From IMG/VR virus record IMGVR_UViG_3300033109_000034: DNA of 42,273 bases; one strand, given 5' to 3'. The stretch's first letter is position 1; every line of letters begins with the position of its first letter. This document shows, one piece after another, positions 1 through 42,273 of the stretch. Origin of the DNA: a virus. A program made the position numbers and the translations under genes. A model generated the notes under the pieces. The model saw nothing but the letters and a program-made list of their open reading frames with translations, did not search any database and was not told the DNA's origin.

Positions 1-239
1 CCGATCTTTTCGGCACCAATGACGCCATTGTGTTTCAGCGCCGTACCGGCGCGCTGCATGTGCTCGACTACAAGCACGGCGCCGGGGTCAAGGTGTTCGC
101 GGAGCGAAACCCACAACTCATGTACTACGGGCTTGGCGCGCTGCTTGAATTTGGCAGCGCCGTGAAATCCGTGACGTTGCACGTCGTGCAACCTCGCTGC
201 GGCAACGGCGCTCCGGAATCATGGACGTGCACACCAGCA
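1..239. repeat. Terminal overlap: exact copy of 42035..42273 (contig closes into a circle; unique length 42034 bp)
   Basis: Read base by base. Both copies run ccgatcttttcggcacc...gacgtgcacaccagca without mismatch, and the repeat lies inside one continuous reading frame. Confidence 0.95.
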
Positions 240-9290: not shown

Positions 9291-9522
9291 TTACCGACCA
9301 ATGCCCAGCGAGCTTAGCATAAGCGATTCTAAGCTCGCCGCTCCCGAACACGGCTATATACCTCACGTCGCTATCTAGCTTAGAGAAAAGCTGCACGGCG
9401 CGGGCCAAATCAACAAACTCATTCGGGTCGGTTTCTACGATGCCGCTCCTCAGCGCGAAGTTATAGCTGACTGCTCTAACCCGGCAATTCAGCTCTGCGT
9501 TAGCTCGATACTCGTCAGACAT
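9265..9522 (-). CDS. Hypothetical protein translationally coupled to the integrase 3' end
   Basis: The ATG overlaps the int stop by 8 nt (aaaggcgATGtcTGA). The region is visibly lower in GC. I recognised no motif. Confidence 0.4.
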   Translation of the reverse strand: MSDEYRANAELNCRVRAVSYNFALRSGIVETDPNEFVDLARAVQLFSKLDSDVRYIAVFGSGELRIAYAKLAGHWSVIMPARGVN

Positions 9523-10684
9523 CGCCTTTGGCCTCGCTCAAGATTCGCTCCGCAGCTCGCTCGGCGACGGTCTCTCGTGCGCCCTGCAGCATCCAACTAT
9601 AGCCGCGTGTCGTTGCCGTTGTTGTGTGCCCAAATAGGTCGCCGATCTGATCTAGCGTCAACCCGGCGCTGAGTGCGTAGCTGGCGAAGGTGCGCCGCGC
9701 GTCTCGCATTTGCAGGTCGTGGCATCCGGTAGCCGCACGAATGCGAGCCCATGCCCAGCGCAAATCAATTTTGCCGAACAGCCGGTCATCAGCGCGGCCC
9801 TGAGGCATTGCCGATATCGTGGCGAGGATGCCCGCGGGGAGCGGCACGATTTTGTCGCCGATGTATCTGCTGGTCTTGTGCGCCCGGAATACCAAGCGGG
9901 CGCCGTCGAAGTCGCCCCACGTCGCGCCTAACACCTCGCCGGGGCGGAGCCCGGTGACGAACAGGCACATCAGAGCCGCGGCATGGCCGGGATAATCCGC
10001 GGCTAGTGCGTCGATTTCCGCTAGGACGCGCCGCAGCTCGTCAGGCTCGGCTTTGCGTCGGCGCTTCGGCAGTTGAAATTTTATGGTACCCTTAACCGGG
10101 TTGCCGTCTGCATGCGAGCGCCAGCCGTAGTCTGTCATCGCCAGATTGAGCATCTTTGACAACAGCGCGCGGGTGTGGTTCGCGGCACCCGGCGCCGTGC
10201 CTCTGCCGCCGACGAACCGCCTCGCTCGCACGTCATCAAGAAACCGCTCGACGGCGGGCTTGTCGAGATCAGCCACGCGGGCGGACCCGAGCCCCGGCTT
10301 GACGTGCGCTATAACTAGCTTCCGGTCCTCCTCAACGGATTGCGGCGCTTTATGCCGGGGCGCCCACTCAGCTAGATATCGGTCGCACAGCTCGGCCATA
10401 GTCGGCGCGGCCCGCTGTTCGGCCCAGCCCTGGCTTGGGTCTTCGCCGCGTGCAATCCGCTCTTTGAGATCACGCGCGACTTCGCGCGCCCGCGCCAAGC
10501 TCATCTCGGGGTATGTGCCGAGCTTCGGGCGCCGCTCGATGCCGGCACGCGTGCGATACCATAAAAACCAAGAGCGGCCCGCCGGCCGAATTCTGAGTTG
10601 CAGGCCCAACACTTCATGGTCGCGGATGACCGCGGGGCCGGGTGTGTCGCGAGCCGTAGCATGCGTGAGCTTGACTGCGGTCAT
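9515..10684 (-). CDS. int: Tyrosine integrase, P4-type (DUF4102 arm-binding N-terminus)
   Basis: N-terminus LGLQLRIRPAGRSWFLWYR...RRPKLGTYPEMSLARAREVA. Catalytic region LFVTGLRPGEV, HDLQMRDARRTFASYA, GHTTTATTRGYSW (R...HxxR...Y). Confidence 0.92.
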   Translation of the reverse strand: MTAVKLTHATARDTPGPAVIRDHEVLGLQLRIRPAGRSWFLWYRTRAGIERRPKLGTYPEMSLARAREVARDLKERIARGEDPSQGWAEQRAAPTMAELCDRYLAEWAPRHKAPQSVEEDRKLVIAHVKPGLGSARVADLDKPAVERFLDDVRARRFVGGRGTAPGAANHTRALLSKMLNLAMTDYGWRSHADGNPVKGTIKFQLPKRRRKAEPDELRRVLAEIDALAADYPGHAAALMCLFVTGLRPGEVLGATWGDFDGARLVFRAHKTSRYIGDKIVPLPAGILATISAMPQGRADDRLFGKIDLRWAWARIRAATGCHDLQMRDARRTFASYALSAGLTLDQIGDLFGHTTTATTRGYSWMLQGARETVAERAAERILSEAKGDV

Positions 10685-10733
10685 GGCCGGCGCCTTGAGC
10701 TAAATTCGGGTTGCTGTTGCGCCCAAGTCAATT

Positions 10734-10754
10734 GCTGGGTCGCACCTGGGTCGC
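10734..10754 (+). repeat. Arm-type repeat copy 1 (gctgggtcgcacctgggtcgc)
   Basis: Exact 21-mer. Internally it is two TGGGTCGC units 10 bp apart. Confidence 0.85.
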
Positions 10755-10763
10755 GGGTTAGGC

Positions 10764-10784
10764 GCTGGGTCGCACCTGGGTCGC
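10764..10784 (+). repeat. Arm-type repeat copy 2
   Basis: Exact copy, 30 bp downstream of copy 1, in the same orientation. Confidence 0.85.
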
Positions 10785-10878
10785 TCAATTTTTGGTAGGC
10801 TTTAACTCAACTCGGGAACAAATTTACTATTAAAAACATGTAAAGTCTAGTCGCCCGGCTACCAGCAAATACCATATG

Positions 10879-10923
10879 TCACAGATTTTGAGTCTGCCGC
10901 GTCTACCGTTCCGCCACAGGGGC
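10879..10923 (-). other. 5' half of tRNA-Leu(CAA) (positions 1 to about 45), candidate attP core
   Basis: The minus strand reads GCCCCTG TG GCGG AACGGTAGA CGC G GCAGA CTCAAAA TCTGT GA. This gives acceptor 5' strand, D-arm and anticodon stem-loop with anticodon CAA. No T-arm (GGTTCGA) and no acceptor 3' strand (CAGGGGC) follows. Confidence 0.7.
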
Positions 10924-10976
10924 AAGCTGTTGATTTCGCTAGTGTTTTGATCCATTATCTTATTACGCTAAACGGG

Positions 10977-10997
10977 GCTGGGTCGCACCTGGGTCGC
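10977..10997 (+). repeat. Arm-type repeat copy 3
   Basis: Exact copy on the far side of the tRNA fragment, in the same orientation. Confidence 0.85.
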
Positions 10998-11183
10998 AAA
11001 ACAGGGTAGACCCTATGCCGTTTTGACGGGCTGTGCAACTGGGCCGGCCGTTCCTACGACCCGAGCACCCCTCAACCAGCGTTCCCTCCGGTCCAGCCTG
11101 TCAATTCAGGTCGCGCGTAGCACTGCTGCCAGTGGCGGGGGTGGATTTCTAGACTCGCGGTCAATTTGCGGGCATTTCGTTGT

Positions 11184-11486
11184 CTAGTTTCCCGACGCGA
11201 CATCGAGCGCTAGGCGCCCCTTGTCGGTGATGGAAATAGTGAGGCTCCGGCGCGGGTGCCCATACCGGCCGACAGCGTTCTTAACGCGCGGCAGCGGCTC
11301 TCGGGCTACAACCACCAAACCGGCAGCTTCGAGCTTTGCTAGCGTCAGGCCGGTCGCCACGTTCCATTCGAGTTTCGTCTTGCGCGTGCCGTCCATAGAC
11401 GGCGGGAGAATTACCTCCGTTGCCGTCTTCGGGCCGGACTCCCGCAGCGTGTGCAGGACGGAGAATTGCGCGTCGCTGATCTTCAT
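11184..11486 (-). CDS. Small winged-helix (MarR-like) DNA-binding protein
   Basis: MKISDAQFSVLHTLRESGPKTATEV...LTLAKLEAAGLVVV...ITDKGRLAL fits a wHTH pattern. ATG at 11486 lies 11 nt after the upstream stop. Confidence 0.5.
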   Translation of the reverse strand: MKISDAQFSVLHTLRESGPKTATEVILPPSMDGTRKTKLEWNVATGLTLAKLEAAGLVVVAREPLPRVKNAVGRYGHPRRSLTISITDKGRLALDVASGN

Positions 11487-11497
11487 AGCGCCCGGCC

Positions 11498-11722
11498 CTA
11501 TTGCTGAATGCGCCAACCGGCGCCGTTGCGGAGCATCGCCTCGCACTTGGCGACAAGCTGAGCGGGCGTCGTGTCGTCGCCCATCTCGATCGACAAATAG
11601 CGGTTGCCGAGCTGCGCCCAGGCATGCGCCGGGAAGTGCTCGAAGCTGCCGCCGTGGTGGACCATGCGATGTTCCGCGTCGCGGAAGCCGCTCTTCATCT
11701 TCTCTCGTCCTGCGATGTGCAT
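11498..11722 (-). CDS. Hypothetical small protein
   Basis: ORF with an alternative ATG at 11698 preceded by GAGAGAAG. I recognised no motif. Confidence 0.45.
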   Translation of the reverse strand: MHIAGREKMKSGFRDAEHRMVHHGGSFEHFPAHAWAQLGNRYLSIEMGDDTTPAQLVAKCEAMLRNGAGWRIQQ

Positions 11723-11800
11723 GATGGTGGCTCTCTGTTGAAATCTCAGATACGCACGACTTCGAGTTGATGTCGGTCCATCGTTCCGGCCCTTTCGTTG

Positions 11801-12271
11801 CTATCGCGCTGAGCGCATCAATTCGCGGTATGTCGGGTACTTCTCTGATCTAGGGTCCGCCGGGTTCCAACAAGTGATGTCTCCGGCCTTCTCGCGCGAA
11901 CCGTTGACGAACGCAGCGTTGTCGGGAAGGCGATCGCGGTAGCGCGTCGGTATCTCCCCACCGCTCCAAAGATTGTGCGTCGTGAACCGCCGCCCGTCAG
12001 CCAGTTCGATGTCAAAGCGCCTCCCCGCCATACCTAGGAACACGGTACGGCCGCTGCGGCGCTGTTCGTCTGTCGGCTCTGCGCCTACGCTGTACGTCCA
12101 GCCGTTAATGACAAGGCGGTCCGGGTTGGTGGTTGCAAGGCGGATTTCCCAAAAGGCACACGAGAAGCACTCTCCCGTCTCCTTCATGCGCTTGCCTTCG
12201 GCGCCCATGTACTCCGTGTGAAAGCCGACTTCACCGCAGCCGGGACACGGCGTCTCTGACTTATGCGACAT
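11801..12271 (-). CDS. Hypothetical protein with N-terminal CxxC...CxxC zinc-ribbon
   Basis: CPGCGEVG...CFSCAFW. An SD-like AGAGAAAGG lies upstream. Confidence 0.55.
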   Translation of the reverse strand: MSHKSETPCPGCGEVGFHTEYMGAEGKRMKETGECFSCAFWEIRLATTNPDRLVINGWTYSVGAEPTDEQRRSGRTVFLGMAGRRFDIELADGRRFTTHNLWSGGEIPTRYRDRLPDNAAFVNGSREKAGDITCWNPADPRSEKYPTYRELMRSAR

Positions 12272-12435: not shown

Positions 12436-12570
12436 GGCCGTGTCTCCCGTCTGATGTTCGTAACCTAGACGATGCTATTGACGTTGTCAACTAAGTCGTG
12501 TAACAAATTGTGCATGAGCCGATCGCCAAAGCATCCGCAACGTGCCCCTGAACAGCGCCCCGCCGGGCGA

Positions 12571-13164
12571 ATGGTCGGTTACGCGCGCGTATCGACCGAC
12601 GATCAAGACCTCGCGATGCAGCTCGCCAAGCTCCGTGAGGTCGGCGTGCATCCCGACAACACCCACATGGACACGCTCTCGGCTCGCGCCAAGCGGCGCC
12701 CCGGCCTAGATCGCGCCTGGAAGGATTGCGTTGCCGGTGACACGCTTGTCGTGTGGCGGCTCGACCGGCTGGCGCGCTCGACGCTTGATCTGCTCACCAA
12801 GGTCAAGGACTTGGAAGCTCGCGGCGTGAAGCTGCGCTCGCTCACCGAAGCAATTGAGACGGACACAATCGTCGGTCAGCTCTTGCTCGCCGTGCTCGGT
12901 GCCGTGGCGCAGTTTGAGCGCGACCTGATTGCGGAACGCACGCGCACCGGAATGGCTGTGGCCAGGGAGAACGGCGTGCAGTTCGGGGCGCCTCGCCGCG
13001 TCATCGTGAGCGAGGCGGCTGACCTGTTTCGAAAAGGGTGGACGGTGGCGCAAGTCGCTGAGCACTTCGGCTGCTCATCGCGGCAGGCGGTGTACAAGTA
13101 CTTCGATGCGAAGACGGTACAAGCGTTGCGAGACGAGTGCCGCTCGAAGCGGCGTAGAACATGA
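12571..13164 (+). CDS. Small serine recombinase (resolvase/invertase family) with C-terminal HTH
   Basis: MVGYARVSTDDQDLAMQ (catalytic Ser), LVVWRLDRLARS, LGAVAQFERDLIAERT, C-terminal HTH GWTVAQVAEHFGCSSRQAVYKYF. In-frame upstream ATGs at 12472 and 12514 are possible. However, a TTGACG-N17-TAACAA promoter-like element at 12478-12506 argues for the later start. Confidence 0.85.
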   Translation: MVGYARVSTDDQDLAMQLAKLREVGVHPDNTHMDTLSARAKRRPGLDRAWKDCVAGDTLVVWRLDRLARSTLDLLTKVKDLEARGVKLRSLTEAIETDTIVGQLLLAVLGAVAQFERDLIAERTRTGMAVARENGVQFGAPRRVIVSEAADLFRKGWTVAQVAEHFGCSSRQAVYKYFDAKTVQALRDECRSKRRRT

Positions 13165-41697: not shown

Positions 41698-42273
41698 ATG
41701 GCCGACACAAAAGTTCATTCGAAGCTTGGTGCATCCAGCGCCAAGCGCTGGCTAGCCTGCCCCGGCAGTGTCGCGCTTTGCGCGGGCATCCCTAGCAAGG
41801 ACTCCAAATATTCGCGAGAGGGCTCTTGTGCCCACGCGATCGCAGAGGATTGCTTGCGCCGCGGTCAACACGCCGCGACGTGGGCCGGCAAAACACACCC
41901 TGAATTCCCTGATATCAAACTGACTCATGAGTTATTGCGGCATGTGCAAACGTACTGCACACACGTCCGCATGCTCAACGGTGCCGATTGTGAAACGCGC
42001 ATCGAGTCTGGTTTTTGGTTGGCGGATATCGACGCCGATCTTTTCGGCACCAATGACGCCATTGTGTTTCAGCGCCGTACCGGCGCGCTGCATGTGCTCG
42101 ACTACAAGCACGGCGCCGGGGTCAAGGTGTTCGCGGAGCGAAACCCACAACTCATGTACTACGGGCTTGGCGCGCTGCTTGAATTTGGCAGCGCCGTGAA
42201 ATCCGTGACGTTGCACGTCGTGCAACCTCGCTGCGGCAACGGCGCTCCGGAATCATGGACGTGCACACCAGCA
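41698..42273 (+). CDS. DUF2800 Cas4-like nuclease, N-terminal part (continues at 1..845)
   Basis: My own translation from ATG 41698: MADTKVHSKLGASSAKRWLACPGSVALCAG...SREGSCAHAIAED...LFGTNDAIVFQ. The frame is open to the window end. It is not in the ORF track because no stop is reached. Confidence 0.8.
   Translation, partial: MADTKVHSKLGASSAKRWLACPGSVALCAGIPSKDSKYSREGSCAHAIAEDCLRRGQHAATWAGKTHPEFPDIKLTHELLRHVQTYCTHVRMLNGADCETRIESGFWLADIDADLFGTNDAIVFQRRTGALHVLDYKHGAGVKVFAERNPQLMYYGLGALLEFGSAVKSVTLHVVQPRCGNGAPESWTCTPA
42035..42273. repeat. Terminal overlap, second copy (identical to 1..239)
   Basis: See 1..239. Confidence 0.95.

What the first reader, a model, noticed from the sequence alone, without database searches (positions are those of the whole stretch)
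10734..10997. attP carries the 5' half of tRNA-Leu(CAA), bracketed by three identical 21-bp arm repeats
The minus strand of 10879-10923 reads as positions 1 to about 45 of a Leu tRNA. It shows the acceptor 5' strand GCCCCTG, the D-arm, and the anticodon stem-loop GCAGA-CTCAAAA-TCTGT with anticodon CAA. The sequence then loses all tRNA character: there is no T-arm and no CAGGGGC acceptor 3' strand.

The fragment sits between exact copies of gctgggtcgcacctgggtcgc. Two copies lie on the int side, 30 bp apart, and one lies on the far side. That is the geometry expected of arm-type integrase sites around a core.

Elements that integrate into tRNA genes normally carry the 3' portion, so the gene is rebuilt behind its own promoter. 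A 5'-half identity block means the rebuilt tRNA would be transcribed from phage-supplied upstream DNA. A GATAAT box lies about 30 nt upstream of the fragment on the minus strand. The host promoter would be left driving a truncated copy. That is unusual for a P4-type integrase.
Basis: partly seen in the sequence, partly recalled or inferred. Interest (0 to 1): 0.65.

Follow-up and report, generated by a model that had tools for sequence, protein, structure and literature searches.

The report
Phage attP carrying tRNA-Leu 5' half
This is the attachment site of an uncultured temperate phage that targets a host leucine tRNA gene in the rare "backwards" way, carrying the front half of the gene rather than the back half; this layout is documented but uncommon, and a close relative here uses the same tRNA the usual way round.

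Summary
Three exact 21-mers (10734, 10764, 10977) flank a block on the minus strand, 10923->10881. That block is identical to positions 1-43 of tRNA-Leu(CAA) genes found whole on 50 metagenome contigs. Identity starts at tRNA +1 and stops at the last base of the anticodon stem. No complete tRNA exists in the window.

The site lies 49 bp upstream of a P4-type tyrosine integrase (9515-10684, minus strand). Two relatives (integrase 83% and 59% identical) carry the same 5' half. A third (L080, about 52%) carries the anticodon stem-loop to CCA of tRNA-Leu(CAA) on the opposite strand, with colinear integrase-side arms. So this clade has the palindromic CAGA-N7-TCTG core flipped relative to its arms.

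Integration should leave the host promoter plus a 5' stub facing int. It should rebuild the gene at the far junction, behind phage DNA. No lysogen junction was found, so this step is inferred.

The GATAAT promoter idea is weak. No -35 element or promoter call was found, and relatives read GATAAA.

The layout is rare but known: 159 of 3919 Islander islands, and archaeal pTN3. It is a new member of a known rare kind, of moderate interest.

The parts
9515..10684 (-). Tyrosine integrase, 389 aa, P4-type with an N-terminal arm-binding domain
   Evidence: Pfam Arm-DNA-bind_3 scores 55.1 bits (cutoff 27) and Phage_integrase 33.5 bits (cutoff 27.1). R247, K270, R330, H353 and Y362 are invariant in a 16-member alignment.
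10734..10754 (+). Integrase-side arm repeat 1 (GGGTCGC x2, 11 bp apart)
   Evidence: Exact 21-mer. Colinear with the arm pairs of relatives L057, L078, L080 and L073.
10764..10784 (+). Integrase-side arm repeat 2
   Evidence: Exact 21-mer, 30 bp start-to-start from repeat 1. The same paired spacing is seen in relatives.
10785..10880 (-). 96-bp A+T-rich spacer between core and integrase-side arms (P' arm); no terminator
   Evidence: Colinear, and about the same length, in relatives with either the flipped or the conventional layout. No intrinsic terminator is called. The RNA fold is no better than shuffles, z = 0.12.
10881..10923 (-). Identity block equal to host tRNA-Leu(CAA) positions 1-43 (acceptor 5' strand, D-arm, complete anticodon stem-loop)
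   Evidence: Identical to 50 environmental tRNA-Leu(CAA) genes through position 43. In run X1 it forms a separate 43-nt unitig covering exactly 10881-10923, at depth 71.9 against 21-24 for the phage.
10881..10897 (-). Presumed core: anticodon stem GCAGA/TCTGT around the loop CTCAAAA (10892->10886), the likely 7-bp overlap
   Evidence: This is the only stretch shared by the window block (positions 1-43), the L059 block (which ends at about position 40) and the L080 block (about position 28 to CCA). The CAGA-N7-TCTG form is kept in all five aligned relatives.
10923..10935 (-). IHF-consensus site AATCAACAGCTTG abutting tRNA +1
   Evidence: The only exact WATCAANNNNTTR match in the whole window; 0.63 expected window-wide.
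10954..10959 (-).
   Evidence: Present. No promoter is called, and relatives in runs X2, X3 and X4 carry A>T at 10954, giving GATAAA.
10977..10997 (+). Far-side arm repeat (P arm)
   Evidence: Exact 21-mer. Relatives L003, L005, L078, L080 and L059 each have a cognate repeat on the far side of their tRNA block.
11184..11546 (-). Last ORF of a leftward gene set that points into the far-side arm and tRNA block; a candidate source of read-through transcription for the rebuilt tRNA
   Evidence: ORF list. No Pfam or PHROG match. In L059 the equivalent co-oriented genes begin with an HTH_3 repressor-like gene.

Best explanation
Window 10734-10997 is the attP of an uncultured temperate phage of about 42 kb. 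Its P4-type tyrosine integrase (9515-10684, minus strand) recombines at the anticodon stem-loop of a host tRNA-Leu(CAA) gene.

Int monomers would bind the palindromic stem (CAGA/TCTG) through their core-binding and catalytic domains. They would exchange strands across the 7-nt anticodon loop. Their N-terminal domains would bind the GGGTCGC pairs on both arms, with an IHF-type bend next to the core.

In this clade the core is inverted relative to the arms, compared with the family norm. The stretch of gene the phage must carry on the far side of the core is therefore the 5' part (tRNA positions 1-43), not the 3' part.

After integration, the junction next to int would hold the host promoter and a dead 5' stub, both pointing into int. 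The far junction would hold a rebuilt, sequence-identical tRNA-Leu(CAA) preceded by phage DNA.

Shown: the anatomy, the exact identity to host tRNA genes, conservation in relatives, and the family's polarity in one real lysogen. Inferred: the crossover position, integration itself, and how the rebuilt gene is transcribed. Read-through from the co-oriented upstream phage genes looks more likely than the GATAAT box.
For: - **Repeats and integrase:** three exact arm repeats lie next to an integrase with Arm-DNA-bind_3 and Phage_integrase domains.
- **Match to real tRNA genes:** 43-nt identity to positions 1-43 of tRNA-Leu(CAA) on 50 metagenome contigs. It ends at the last base of the anticodon stem, and no upstream sequence is shared.
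- **Assembly graph in run X1:** a 43-nt unitig covers exactly 10881-10923 at about 3 times phage depth. The flanking phage contigs stop 30 nt (k-1) into the block from each side.
- **Relatives with the same layout:** L057 (Int 83% identical) and L059 (59%) carry the same 5' part on int's strand, between cognate repeats and inside phage DNA. Their D-loops differ as natural tRNA variants do.
- **Same target, usual layout:** L080 (Int P0005, about 52%) carries tRNA-Leu(CAA) from about position 28 to CCA on the opposite strand. Its loop reads TTTTGAG where the window reads CTCAAAA, and the P' arms are colinear.
- **Other conventional relatives:** L078 and L073 (tRNA-Arg ACG) and L005 (tRNA-Lys CTT) carry 3' parts in the same far-side position.
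- **A real lysogen:** L074 sits in a 750-kb contig. The displaced host fragment lies next to int, so the rebuilt gene must be at the far end.
- **Phylogeny:** a neighbour-joining tree groups the 5'-half integrases as one clade next to L080.
- **IHF site:** the only IHF consensus match in the window lies in the P arm.
- **No compensating tRNA:** the window has no tRNA gene of its own.
Against: - No attL or attR junction of this phage or of its 5'-half relatives was found. The arm 21-mer is absent from 185,579 species genomes, and all 50 metagenome hits to the tRNA block are unoccupied attB-type genes.
- Logan contigs (k = 31) cannot bridge a 43-bp repeat, so they cannot show a junction.
- The host taxon is unknown.
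- No recognisable promoter precedes the 5' half in the window or in L059, so expression of the rebuilt gene is unexplained.
- The exact 21-mer also occurs once inside a small-terminase-like ORF on two contigs with no int in the DNA held. It is therefore not exclusive to att sites.
Confidence: 0.8

Rival explanations
1. First reader's version of the transcription step. The site works as described, and the rebuilt tRNA-Leu is driven by a dedicated phage promoter whose -10 element is the GATAAT box at 10959->10954.
For: GATAAT (5 of 6 consensus matches) lies 31-36 nt upstream of tRNA +1. Host genes place their TATGAT/TATAGT boxes at a similar distance.
Against: The promoter scan calls nothing in 10600-11250. 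The -35 position falls in the arm repeat (CCCAGC or GCGACC). Relatives about 93% identical in runs X2, X3 and X4 carry A>T at 10954, which removes the key final T (GATAAA), although 10854-10953 shows no listed change. L059 has no comparable box or promoter call.
Confidence: 0.15
2. The half-tRNA is a passive scar: host DNA picked up by a past imprecise excision, or a decayed phage tRNA gene. The real crossover site would lie elsewhere between the arms.
For: No lysogen junction was seen. Aberrant excision can transfer flanking host DNA into a phage.
Against: The block begins exactly at tRNA +1 and ends exactly at the end of the anticodon stem. It is error-free relative to the host genes. Integrases down to 59% identity keep it at the same place, while the surrounding DNA has diverged beyond recognition. 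In the five-way alignment the CAGA-N7-TCTG element occupies the position of the core used by conventional relatives. In run X1 no other part of 10300-11400 shows the raised depth expected of a host-shared sequence.
Confidence: 0.06
3. tRNA-dependent lysogeny in the sense of Guerrero-Bustamante and Hatfull. Integration would destroy the host tRNA without rebuilding it, and the phage would compensate with its own tRNA gene.
For: Both mechanisms use a tyrosine integrase with an attB inside a tRNA gene (PMC10865867).
Against: That system has a common core of only about 10 bp and a phage-borne tRNA of the same isotype. Here the shared block is 43 bp and reaches the gene's 5' end, and the phage carries no tRNA gene.
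Confidence: 0.02

Closest known systems
Genomic islands and prophages with a 5' tDNA fragment (Islander database, Hudson et al. 2015, PMC4383910; rare bacterial cases attributed to Williams 2002)
   Same: A tyrosine integrase targets a tRNA gene. The element carries the 5' portion, so the displaced fragment is a 5' piece upstream of the rebuilt gene. The attP is centred on the anticodon.
   Different: Those are integrated elements mapped in genomes, 159 of 3919 (about 4%). This one is a free phage attP from a metagenome with no junction observed. Here the flipped and conventional layouts on the same tRNA-Leu(CAA) core are seen side by side in sister lineages.
pTN3-like integrases of Thermococcales (Cossu et al. 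2017, PMC5495485; review PMC8371274)
   Same: attB is the 5' half of a tRNA-Leu gene. That system has a 41-bp shared stretch and a minimal site of Leu positions 2-44; here the block is positions 1-43. The full gene is rebuilt but separated from its own promoter.
   Different: pTN3 is archaeal and uses an SSV-type 'suicidal' integrase whose attP lies inside the int ORF and splits it. The rebuilt tRNA is said to be expressed from the int promoter. Here a bacterial P4-type Int has a separate attP with arm repeats starting 49 bp upstream of an intact int (the tRNA block itself lies 196 bp upstream). The rebuilt gene ends up at the end of the prophage far from int.
Conventional anticodon-loop attP sites of this same integrase family (L080 tRNA-Leu CAA, L078 and L073 tRNA-Arg ACG, L005 tRNA-Lys CTT, lysogen L074), and P4-type tRNA integration in general
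   Same: The same integrase family and the same (G/A)CGAC-type paired arm units. The same core-to-arm spacing, the same CAGA-N7-TCTG core, and the gene piece on the far side of the core from int.
   Different: They carry the 3' part on the strand opposite int, and L005 also supplies a terminator. The host promoter therefore keeps driving the rebuilt gene, and nothing from the host reads into int.
tRNA-dependent lysogeny in actinobacteriophages (PMC10865867)
   Same: A tyrosine integrase with an attB overlapping a host tRNA gene, departing from the standard rule that the 3' half is rebuilt.
   Different: That system has a short core of about 10 bp, does not rebuild the gene, and compensates with a phage tRNA. 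None of these applies here.

Membership tests
Tyrosine recombinase, P4-type integrase (N-terminal Arm-DNA-bind_3 domain) | C-terminal catalytic domain matches Phage_integrase above the curated cutoff | tested here: met
   33.5 bits against a cutoff of 27.1, residues 213-362
Tyrosine recombinase, P4-type integrase (N-terminal Arm-DNA-bind_3 domain) | N-terminal arm-type DNA-binding domain | tested here: met
   PF13356 scores 55.1 bits against a cutoff of 27, residues 19-86
Tyrosine recombinase, P4-type integrase (N-terminal Arm-DNA-bind_3 domain) | Catalytic residues R...K...HxxR...H...Y | tested here: met
   R247, K270, R330, H353 and Y362 are invariant in 16 homologues. The first His of the HxxR box is Arg (RDARRTFAS), and R or L across the family, which I read as a tolerated variation.
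Tyrosine recombinase, P4-type integrase (N-terminal Arm-DNA-bind_3 domain) | Catalyses attP x attB recombination | not testable with these tools
   Requires an in vivo or in vitro recombination assay
tRNA-gene attP, anticodon-centred class (Williams 2002; Islander class A) | attP shares with a host tRNA gene a block that includes the anticodon stem-loop | tested here: met
   10881-10923 is identical to positions 1-43 of tRNA-Leu(CAA) on 50 contigs
tRNA-gene attP, anticodon-centred class (Williams 2002; Islander class A) | The block runs from the crossover region to one end of the gene, so integration rebuilds an intact gene | tested here: met
   The block reaches tRNA +1 exactly and is error-free
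tRNA-gene attP, anticodon-centred class (Williams 2002; Islander class A) | The block is the 3' part of the gene (majority form, 3760 of 3919 islands) | tested here: not met
   It is the 5' part. The site therefore belongs to the minority with a 5' tDNA fragment, 159 of 3919 (PMC4383910).
tRNA-gene attP, anticodon-centred class (Williams 2002; Islander class A) | Repeated arm-type sites on both sides of the core that match the integrase | tested here: met
   Three GGGTCGC pairs. The unit changes with the integrase: GCTACCT in L059, GCGACAT in L073, ACGACCT in L076, ACGACT in L074.
tRNA-gene attP, anticodon-centred class (Williams 2002; Islander class A) | attL and attR seen in a lysogen, with a displaced fragment and a rebuilt gene | tested here: inconclusive
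   None was found for this phage or its 5'-half relatives. A distant family member, L074, does show the displaced fragment next to int.
tRNA-dependent lysogeny (PMC10865867) | Short common core of about 10 bp that does not rebuild the tRNA | tested here: not met
   The block is 43 bp and reaches the 5' end of the gene
tRNA-dependent lysogeny (PMC10865867) | [quoted passage not shown] | tested here: not met
   ARAGORN finds 0 tRNA genes in the window
pTN3-like / SSV-type 'suicidal' integrases | attP lies inside the int ORF, so integration splits int | tested here: not met
   The block at 10881-10923 lies 196 bp upstream of the int start codon at 10684
pTN3-like / SSV-type 'suicidal' integrases | attB is the 5' half of a tRNA gene, and the rebuilt gene is cut off from its own promoter | tested here: met
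   Positions 1-43 here, against Leu positions 2-44 for pTN3. This is a functional resemblance only, not membership.

The most novel reading that the evidence does not exclude
The flip would rewire transcription at both junctions. At the int-side junction, a strong constitutive host tRNA promoter would read through a terminator-less 5' stub and P' arm straight into int. At the far junction, the cell's tRNA-Leu(CAA) would depend on prophage transcription, namely read-through from the co-oriented gene set, which in L059 begins with a repressor-like gene. Expression of a host tRNA for a rare codon and of the phage integrase would then be coupled to the lysogenic state. The flip itself could have arisen from one wrong-way integration at the palindromic anticodon stem, followed by imprecise excision.
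Probability: 0.2. Interest if true: 0.6.

Novelty: new member of a known kind. Interest (0 to 1): 0.4.

Why it matters
Most tools and rules of thumb for mapping prophages assume that the element carries the 3' end of its target tRNA. The 5' layout is a documented minority of about 4% and is poorly characterised in bacteria.

This window, together with its relative L080, gives a clean natural pair. They share one integrase family, one target (the tRNA-Leu(CAA) anticodon loop) and colinear arms, but have opposite core orientation. That makes two questions directly testable:
- What sets integration orientation?
- How is a rebuilt tRNA expressed once cut off from its own promoter?

In practical terms, attB-prediction and host-assignment pipelines should also look for 5' tRNA blocks.

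Tried and rejected
- **Arm 21-mer in 185,579 species genomes:** no match, so no lysogen was found that way.
- **Exact 44-mer of the half-tRNA in the same genomes:** no match. In hindsight the pattern was one base too long, because the host differs at position 44.
- **Phage-side junction 23-mer in IMG/VR:** none.
- **A 24-mer of the tRNA in IMG/VR:** 11 full tRNA genes, 10 of them in multi-tRNA clusters on large phage contigs and one at a contig end; none informative.
- **The search for related loci with an integrase alignment on IMG/VR:** nothing confirmed.
- **GenBank phages:** no match by megablast. In the distant search only the tRNA half matches, hitting phage tRNA-Leu genes.
- **Host tRNA against plasmids:** at most about 80% identity, so uninformative about the host.
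- **Rfam on seven related loci at E <= 1:** nothing, because partial tRNAs score too low in a 59-kb search. Their tRNA pieces were read directly instead.
- **Logan contigs:** they cannot show attL or attR, because the 43-bp block exceeds k = 31. A 'joint' 10500->10882 in run X1 rests on 26 G+C-rich letters inside int and was judged a chance match.
- **Promoter and terminator scans, and an RNA fold of the stub plus P' arm:** these gave no promoter, no terminator and no structure.
- **Williams 2002:** not held in the paper library. Its content is cited only through PMC8371274 and PMC4383910.

Full report
**What is there.** The window is a metagenomic phage genome of about 42 kb. The same integrase is on JGI contig Ga0439197_1232182 and on a Logan contig of SRR32497121. 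The window carries a 239-bp terminal direct repeat. Its DNA polymerase is at best 38% identical to cultured phages, chiefly Ralstonia podophages.

A 389-aa integrase on the minus strand (9515-10684) has Pfam Arm-DNA-bind_3 and Phage_integrase domains. It keeps R247, K270, R330, H353 and Y362.

Upstream of its start codon, the 21-mer GCTGGGTCGCACCTGGGTCGC occurs exactly three times, at 10734, 10764 and 10977. It occurs nowhere else, even with 3 mismatches; 0.01 copies are expected by chance. Each copy is two GGGTCGC units 11 bp apart, and 6 of the window's 10 such heptamers lie here.

**The tRNA piece.** The minus strand 10923->10880 reads as the 5' part of tRNA-Leu(CAA). ARAGORN finds no tRNA in the window. 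Rfam gives a sub-threshold tRNA hit of 17.3 bits against 29, in which only the first 43 or so positions align well.

The first 42 nt occur exactly on 50 metagenome contigs, always inside an apparently complete tRNA-Leu(CAA) gene; most contigs with enough upstream sequence also show a TTGACC-N17-TATGAT-type promoter. ARAGORN confirmed an 86-nt gene on the three contigs tested. Hosts continue CTGTT where the phage has CTGTG. The shared block is therefore 43 nt, 10881-10923. It begins at tRNA +1 and ends at the last base of the anticodon stem, and nothing upstream of +1 is shared.

The assembly graph of the sample holding the phage shows the same boundary independently. A 43-nt unitig covers exactly 10881-10923 at depth 71.9, against 21-24 for the phage. 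The two phage contigs stop 30 nt (k-1) into the block from either side.

**Evidence that it is the att core.** Three lines of comparison support this.

- *The 5' half is conserved in relatives.* L057 (integrase 83% identical) has the same half-tRNA followed by TGACATA..., then two GGGTCGC pairs, then int. L059 (59%) has GCCCCTGTGGCGGAACCGGTAGACGCGGCAGACTCAAAATC inside phage DNA. It lies on int's strand, between repeats of a different unit (GCTACCT). Its identity stops just after the anticodon loop.
- *The repeat unit changes with the integrase.* It is GCGACAT in L073, ACGACCT in L076 and ACGACT in L074, as expected of arm-type Int sites.
- *Relatives use the same architecture conventionally.* L078 and L073 carry tRNA-Arg(ACG) from the anticodon stem-loop to CCA, and L005 does the same for tRNA-Lys(CTT). 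L003 and L072 also carry 3' tRNA pieces (T-arm, and in L003 the CCA end) whose isotype was not identified. All are on the strand opposite int and on the far side of the core.

L074 is a true lysogen in a 750-kb contig. It shows host sbcCD-like genes, then a tRNA-Arg 3' remnant, then the arms, then int. In this family the junction next to int therefore keeps the displaced host piece, and the rebuilt gene is at the far end.

**The flip.** L080 (integrase P0005, about 52% identical) has the same GCGACCC arm units and targets the same tRNA-Leu(CAA) stem-loop. It carries the stretch from about position 28 to CCA on the opposite strand.

A five-way alignment shows colinear P' arms, equal core-to-arm spacing and a constant CAGA-N7-TCTG core. 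The loop reads CTCAAAA in the window and L057, and TTTTGAG in L080. A neighbour-joining tree groups the 5'-half integrases (P0001-P0004) as one clade beside L080 and L078.

The simplest reading is a single inversion of the palindromic core relative to the arms. After it, the far-side arm has to supply the 5' part of the gene instead of the 3' part. The stretch common to the window, L059 and L080 blocks is the anticodon stem-loop (10881-10897). This is where I place the crossover, by analogy with anticodon-centred att sites (PMC4383910, PMC8371274).

The only exact IHF consensus match in the whole window, AATCAACAGCTTG at 10923-10935, lies between the core and the far-side arm.

**Predicted consequence (inferred).** The int-side junction would read: host promoter, tRNA positions 1 to about 35, P' spacer, arms, int. 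No terminator or stable structure lies between the stub and int.

The far junction would read: phage genes, far-side arm, rebuilt full tRNA-Leu(CAA), host terminator. The phage has no tRNA gene to compensate, so rebuilding the gene is the point of the 43-bp block.

How the rebuilt gene is transcribed remains open. It reads GATAAA in relatives about 93% identical from three other samples, although 10854-10953 shows no listed change in them. L059 has no promoter call either.

In both phages the half-tRNA lies directly downstream of co-oriented genes: 11184-12271 in the window, and a set headed by an HTH_3 repressor-like gene in L059. Read-through is therefore my preferred guess, but it is untested.

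**What is missing.** I found no attL or attR for this phage or its 5'-half relatives. Logan contigs cannot resolve such junctions. The host taxon is unknown.

The exact 21-mer also occurs once inside a small-terminase-like ORF on two IMG/VR contigs with no int in the DNA held. I cannot explain this.

**Comparison with what is known.** Islander counts 3760 islands with a 3' tDNA fragment and 159 with a 5' fragment, out of 3919 (PMC4383910). [quoted passage not shown] It adds that the 5'-half usage of archaeal pTN3-like integrases is 'seldomly encountered in bacteria' (PMC8371274).

pTN3 shares 41 bp with a tRNA-Leu gene (minimal site Leu positions 2-44) and rebuilds the gene away from its promoter (PMC5495485). 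But its attP lies inside int, which is not the case here. tRNA-dependent lysogeny (PMC10865867) fails on both of its defining features.

**Verdict.** The promoter detail is not supported. The site is a new member of a rare but documented kind. Its added value is the side-by-side pair of flipped and conventional layouts on one tRNA target.

Noticed in passing
window 1-239 and 42035-42273: An exact 239-bp terminal direct repeat. It is either a true direct terminal repeat or the overlap left by assembling a circular genome. Either way it indicates a complete phage genome.
   Followed up: partly
window 12472-13164 (+): A small serine recombinase or DNA invertase (Pfam Resolvase E = 1e-40; phrog_125), 1.5 kb from attP and divergent from the leftward genes that point at attP. 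Its target and role are unknown.
   Followed up: no
L006 10088-10108 and L004 4651-4671 (IMG/VR contigs): The exact arm 21-mer occurs once in the 3' part of a small-terminase-like ORF (Sf6_terminase domain). No integrase or tRNA piece is present in the DNA held. This is unexplained and shows the 21-mer is not exclusive to att sites.
   Followed up: partly
window 9515-10684 (-), residue 327: The first His of the HxxR catalytic box is Arg (RDARRTFAS). Across the family this position is R or L, while the other catalytic residues are invariant.
   Followed up: partly
window 10317-11044: Runs X3 and X4 hold a contig about 93% identical across the int N-terminus and attP. It becomes unlike the window before 10317 and after 11044. 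The arm-binding part of int and attP therefore seem to travel together as a mosaic module.
   Followed up: no
L003 7046-7066: In this relative, the int-side arm repeat lies inside the first codons of the integrase ORF, so attP overlaps the start of int.
   Followed up: no
window 10690-10733 and L057 185-229: A conserved stretch, GGGCGCAAC(A/G)GCAAC(C/T)CGA(A/G)TTTA(G/A)CTCAA, lies between the arms and the next gene. It may be a regulatory site for int expression. No promoter is called there.
   Followed up: no
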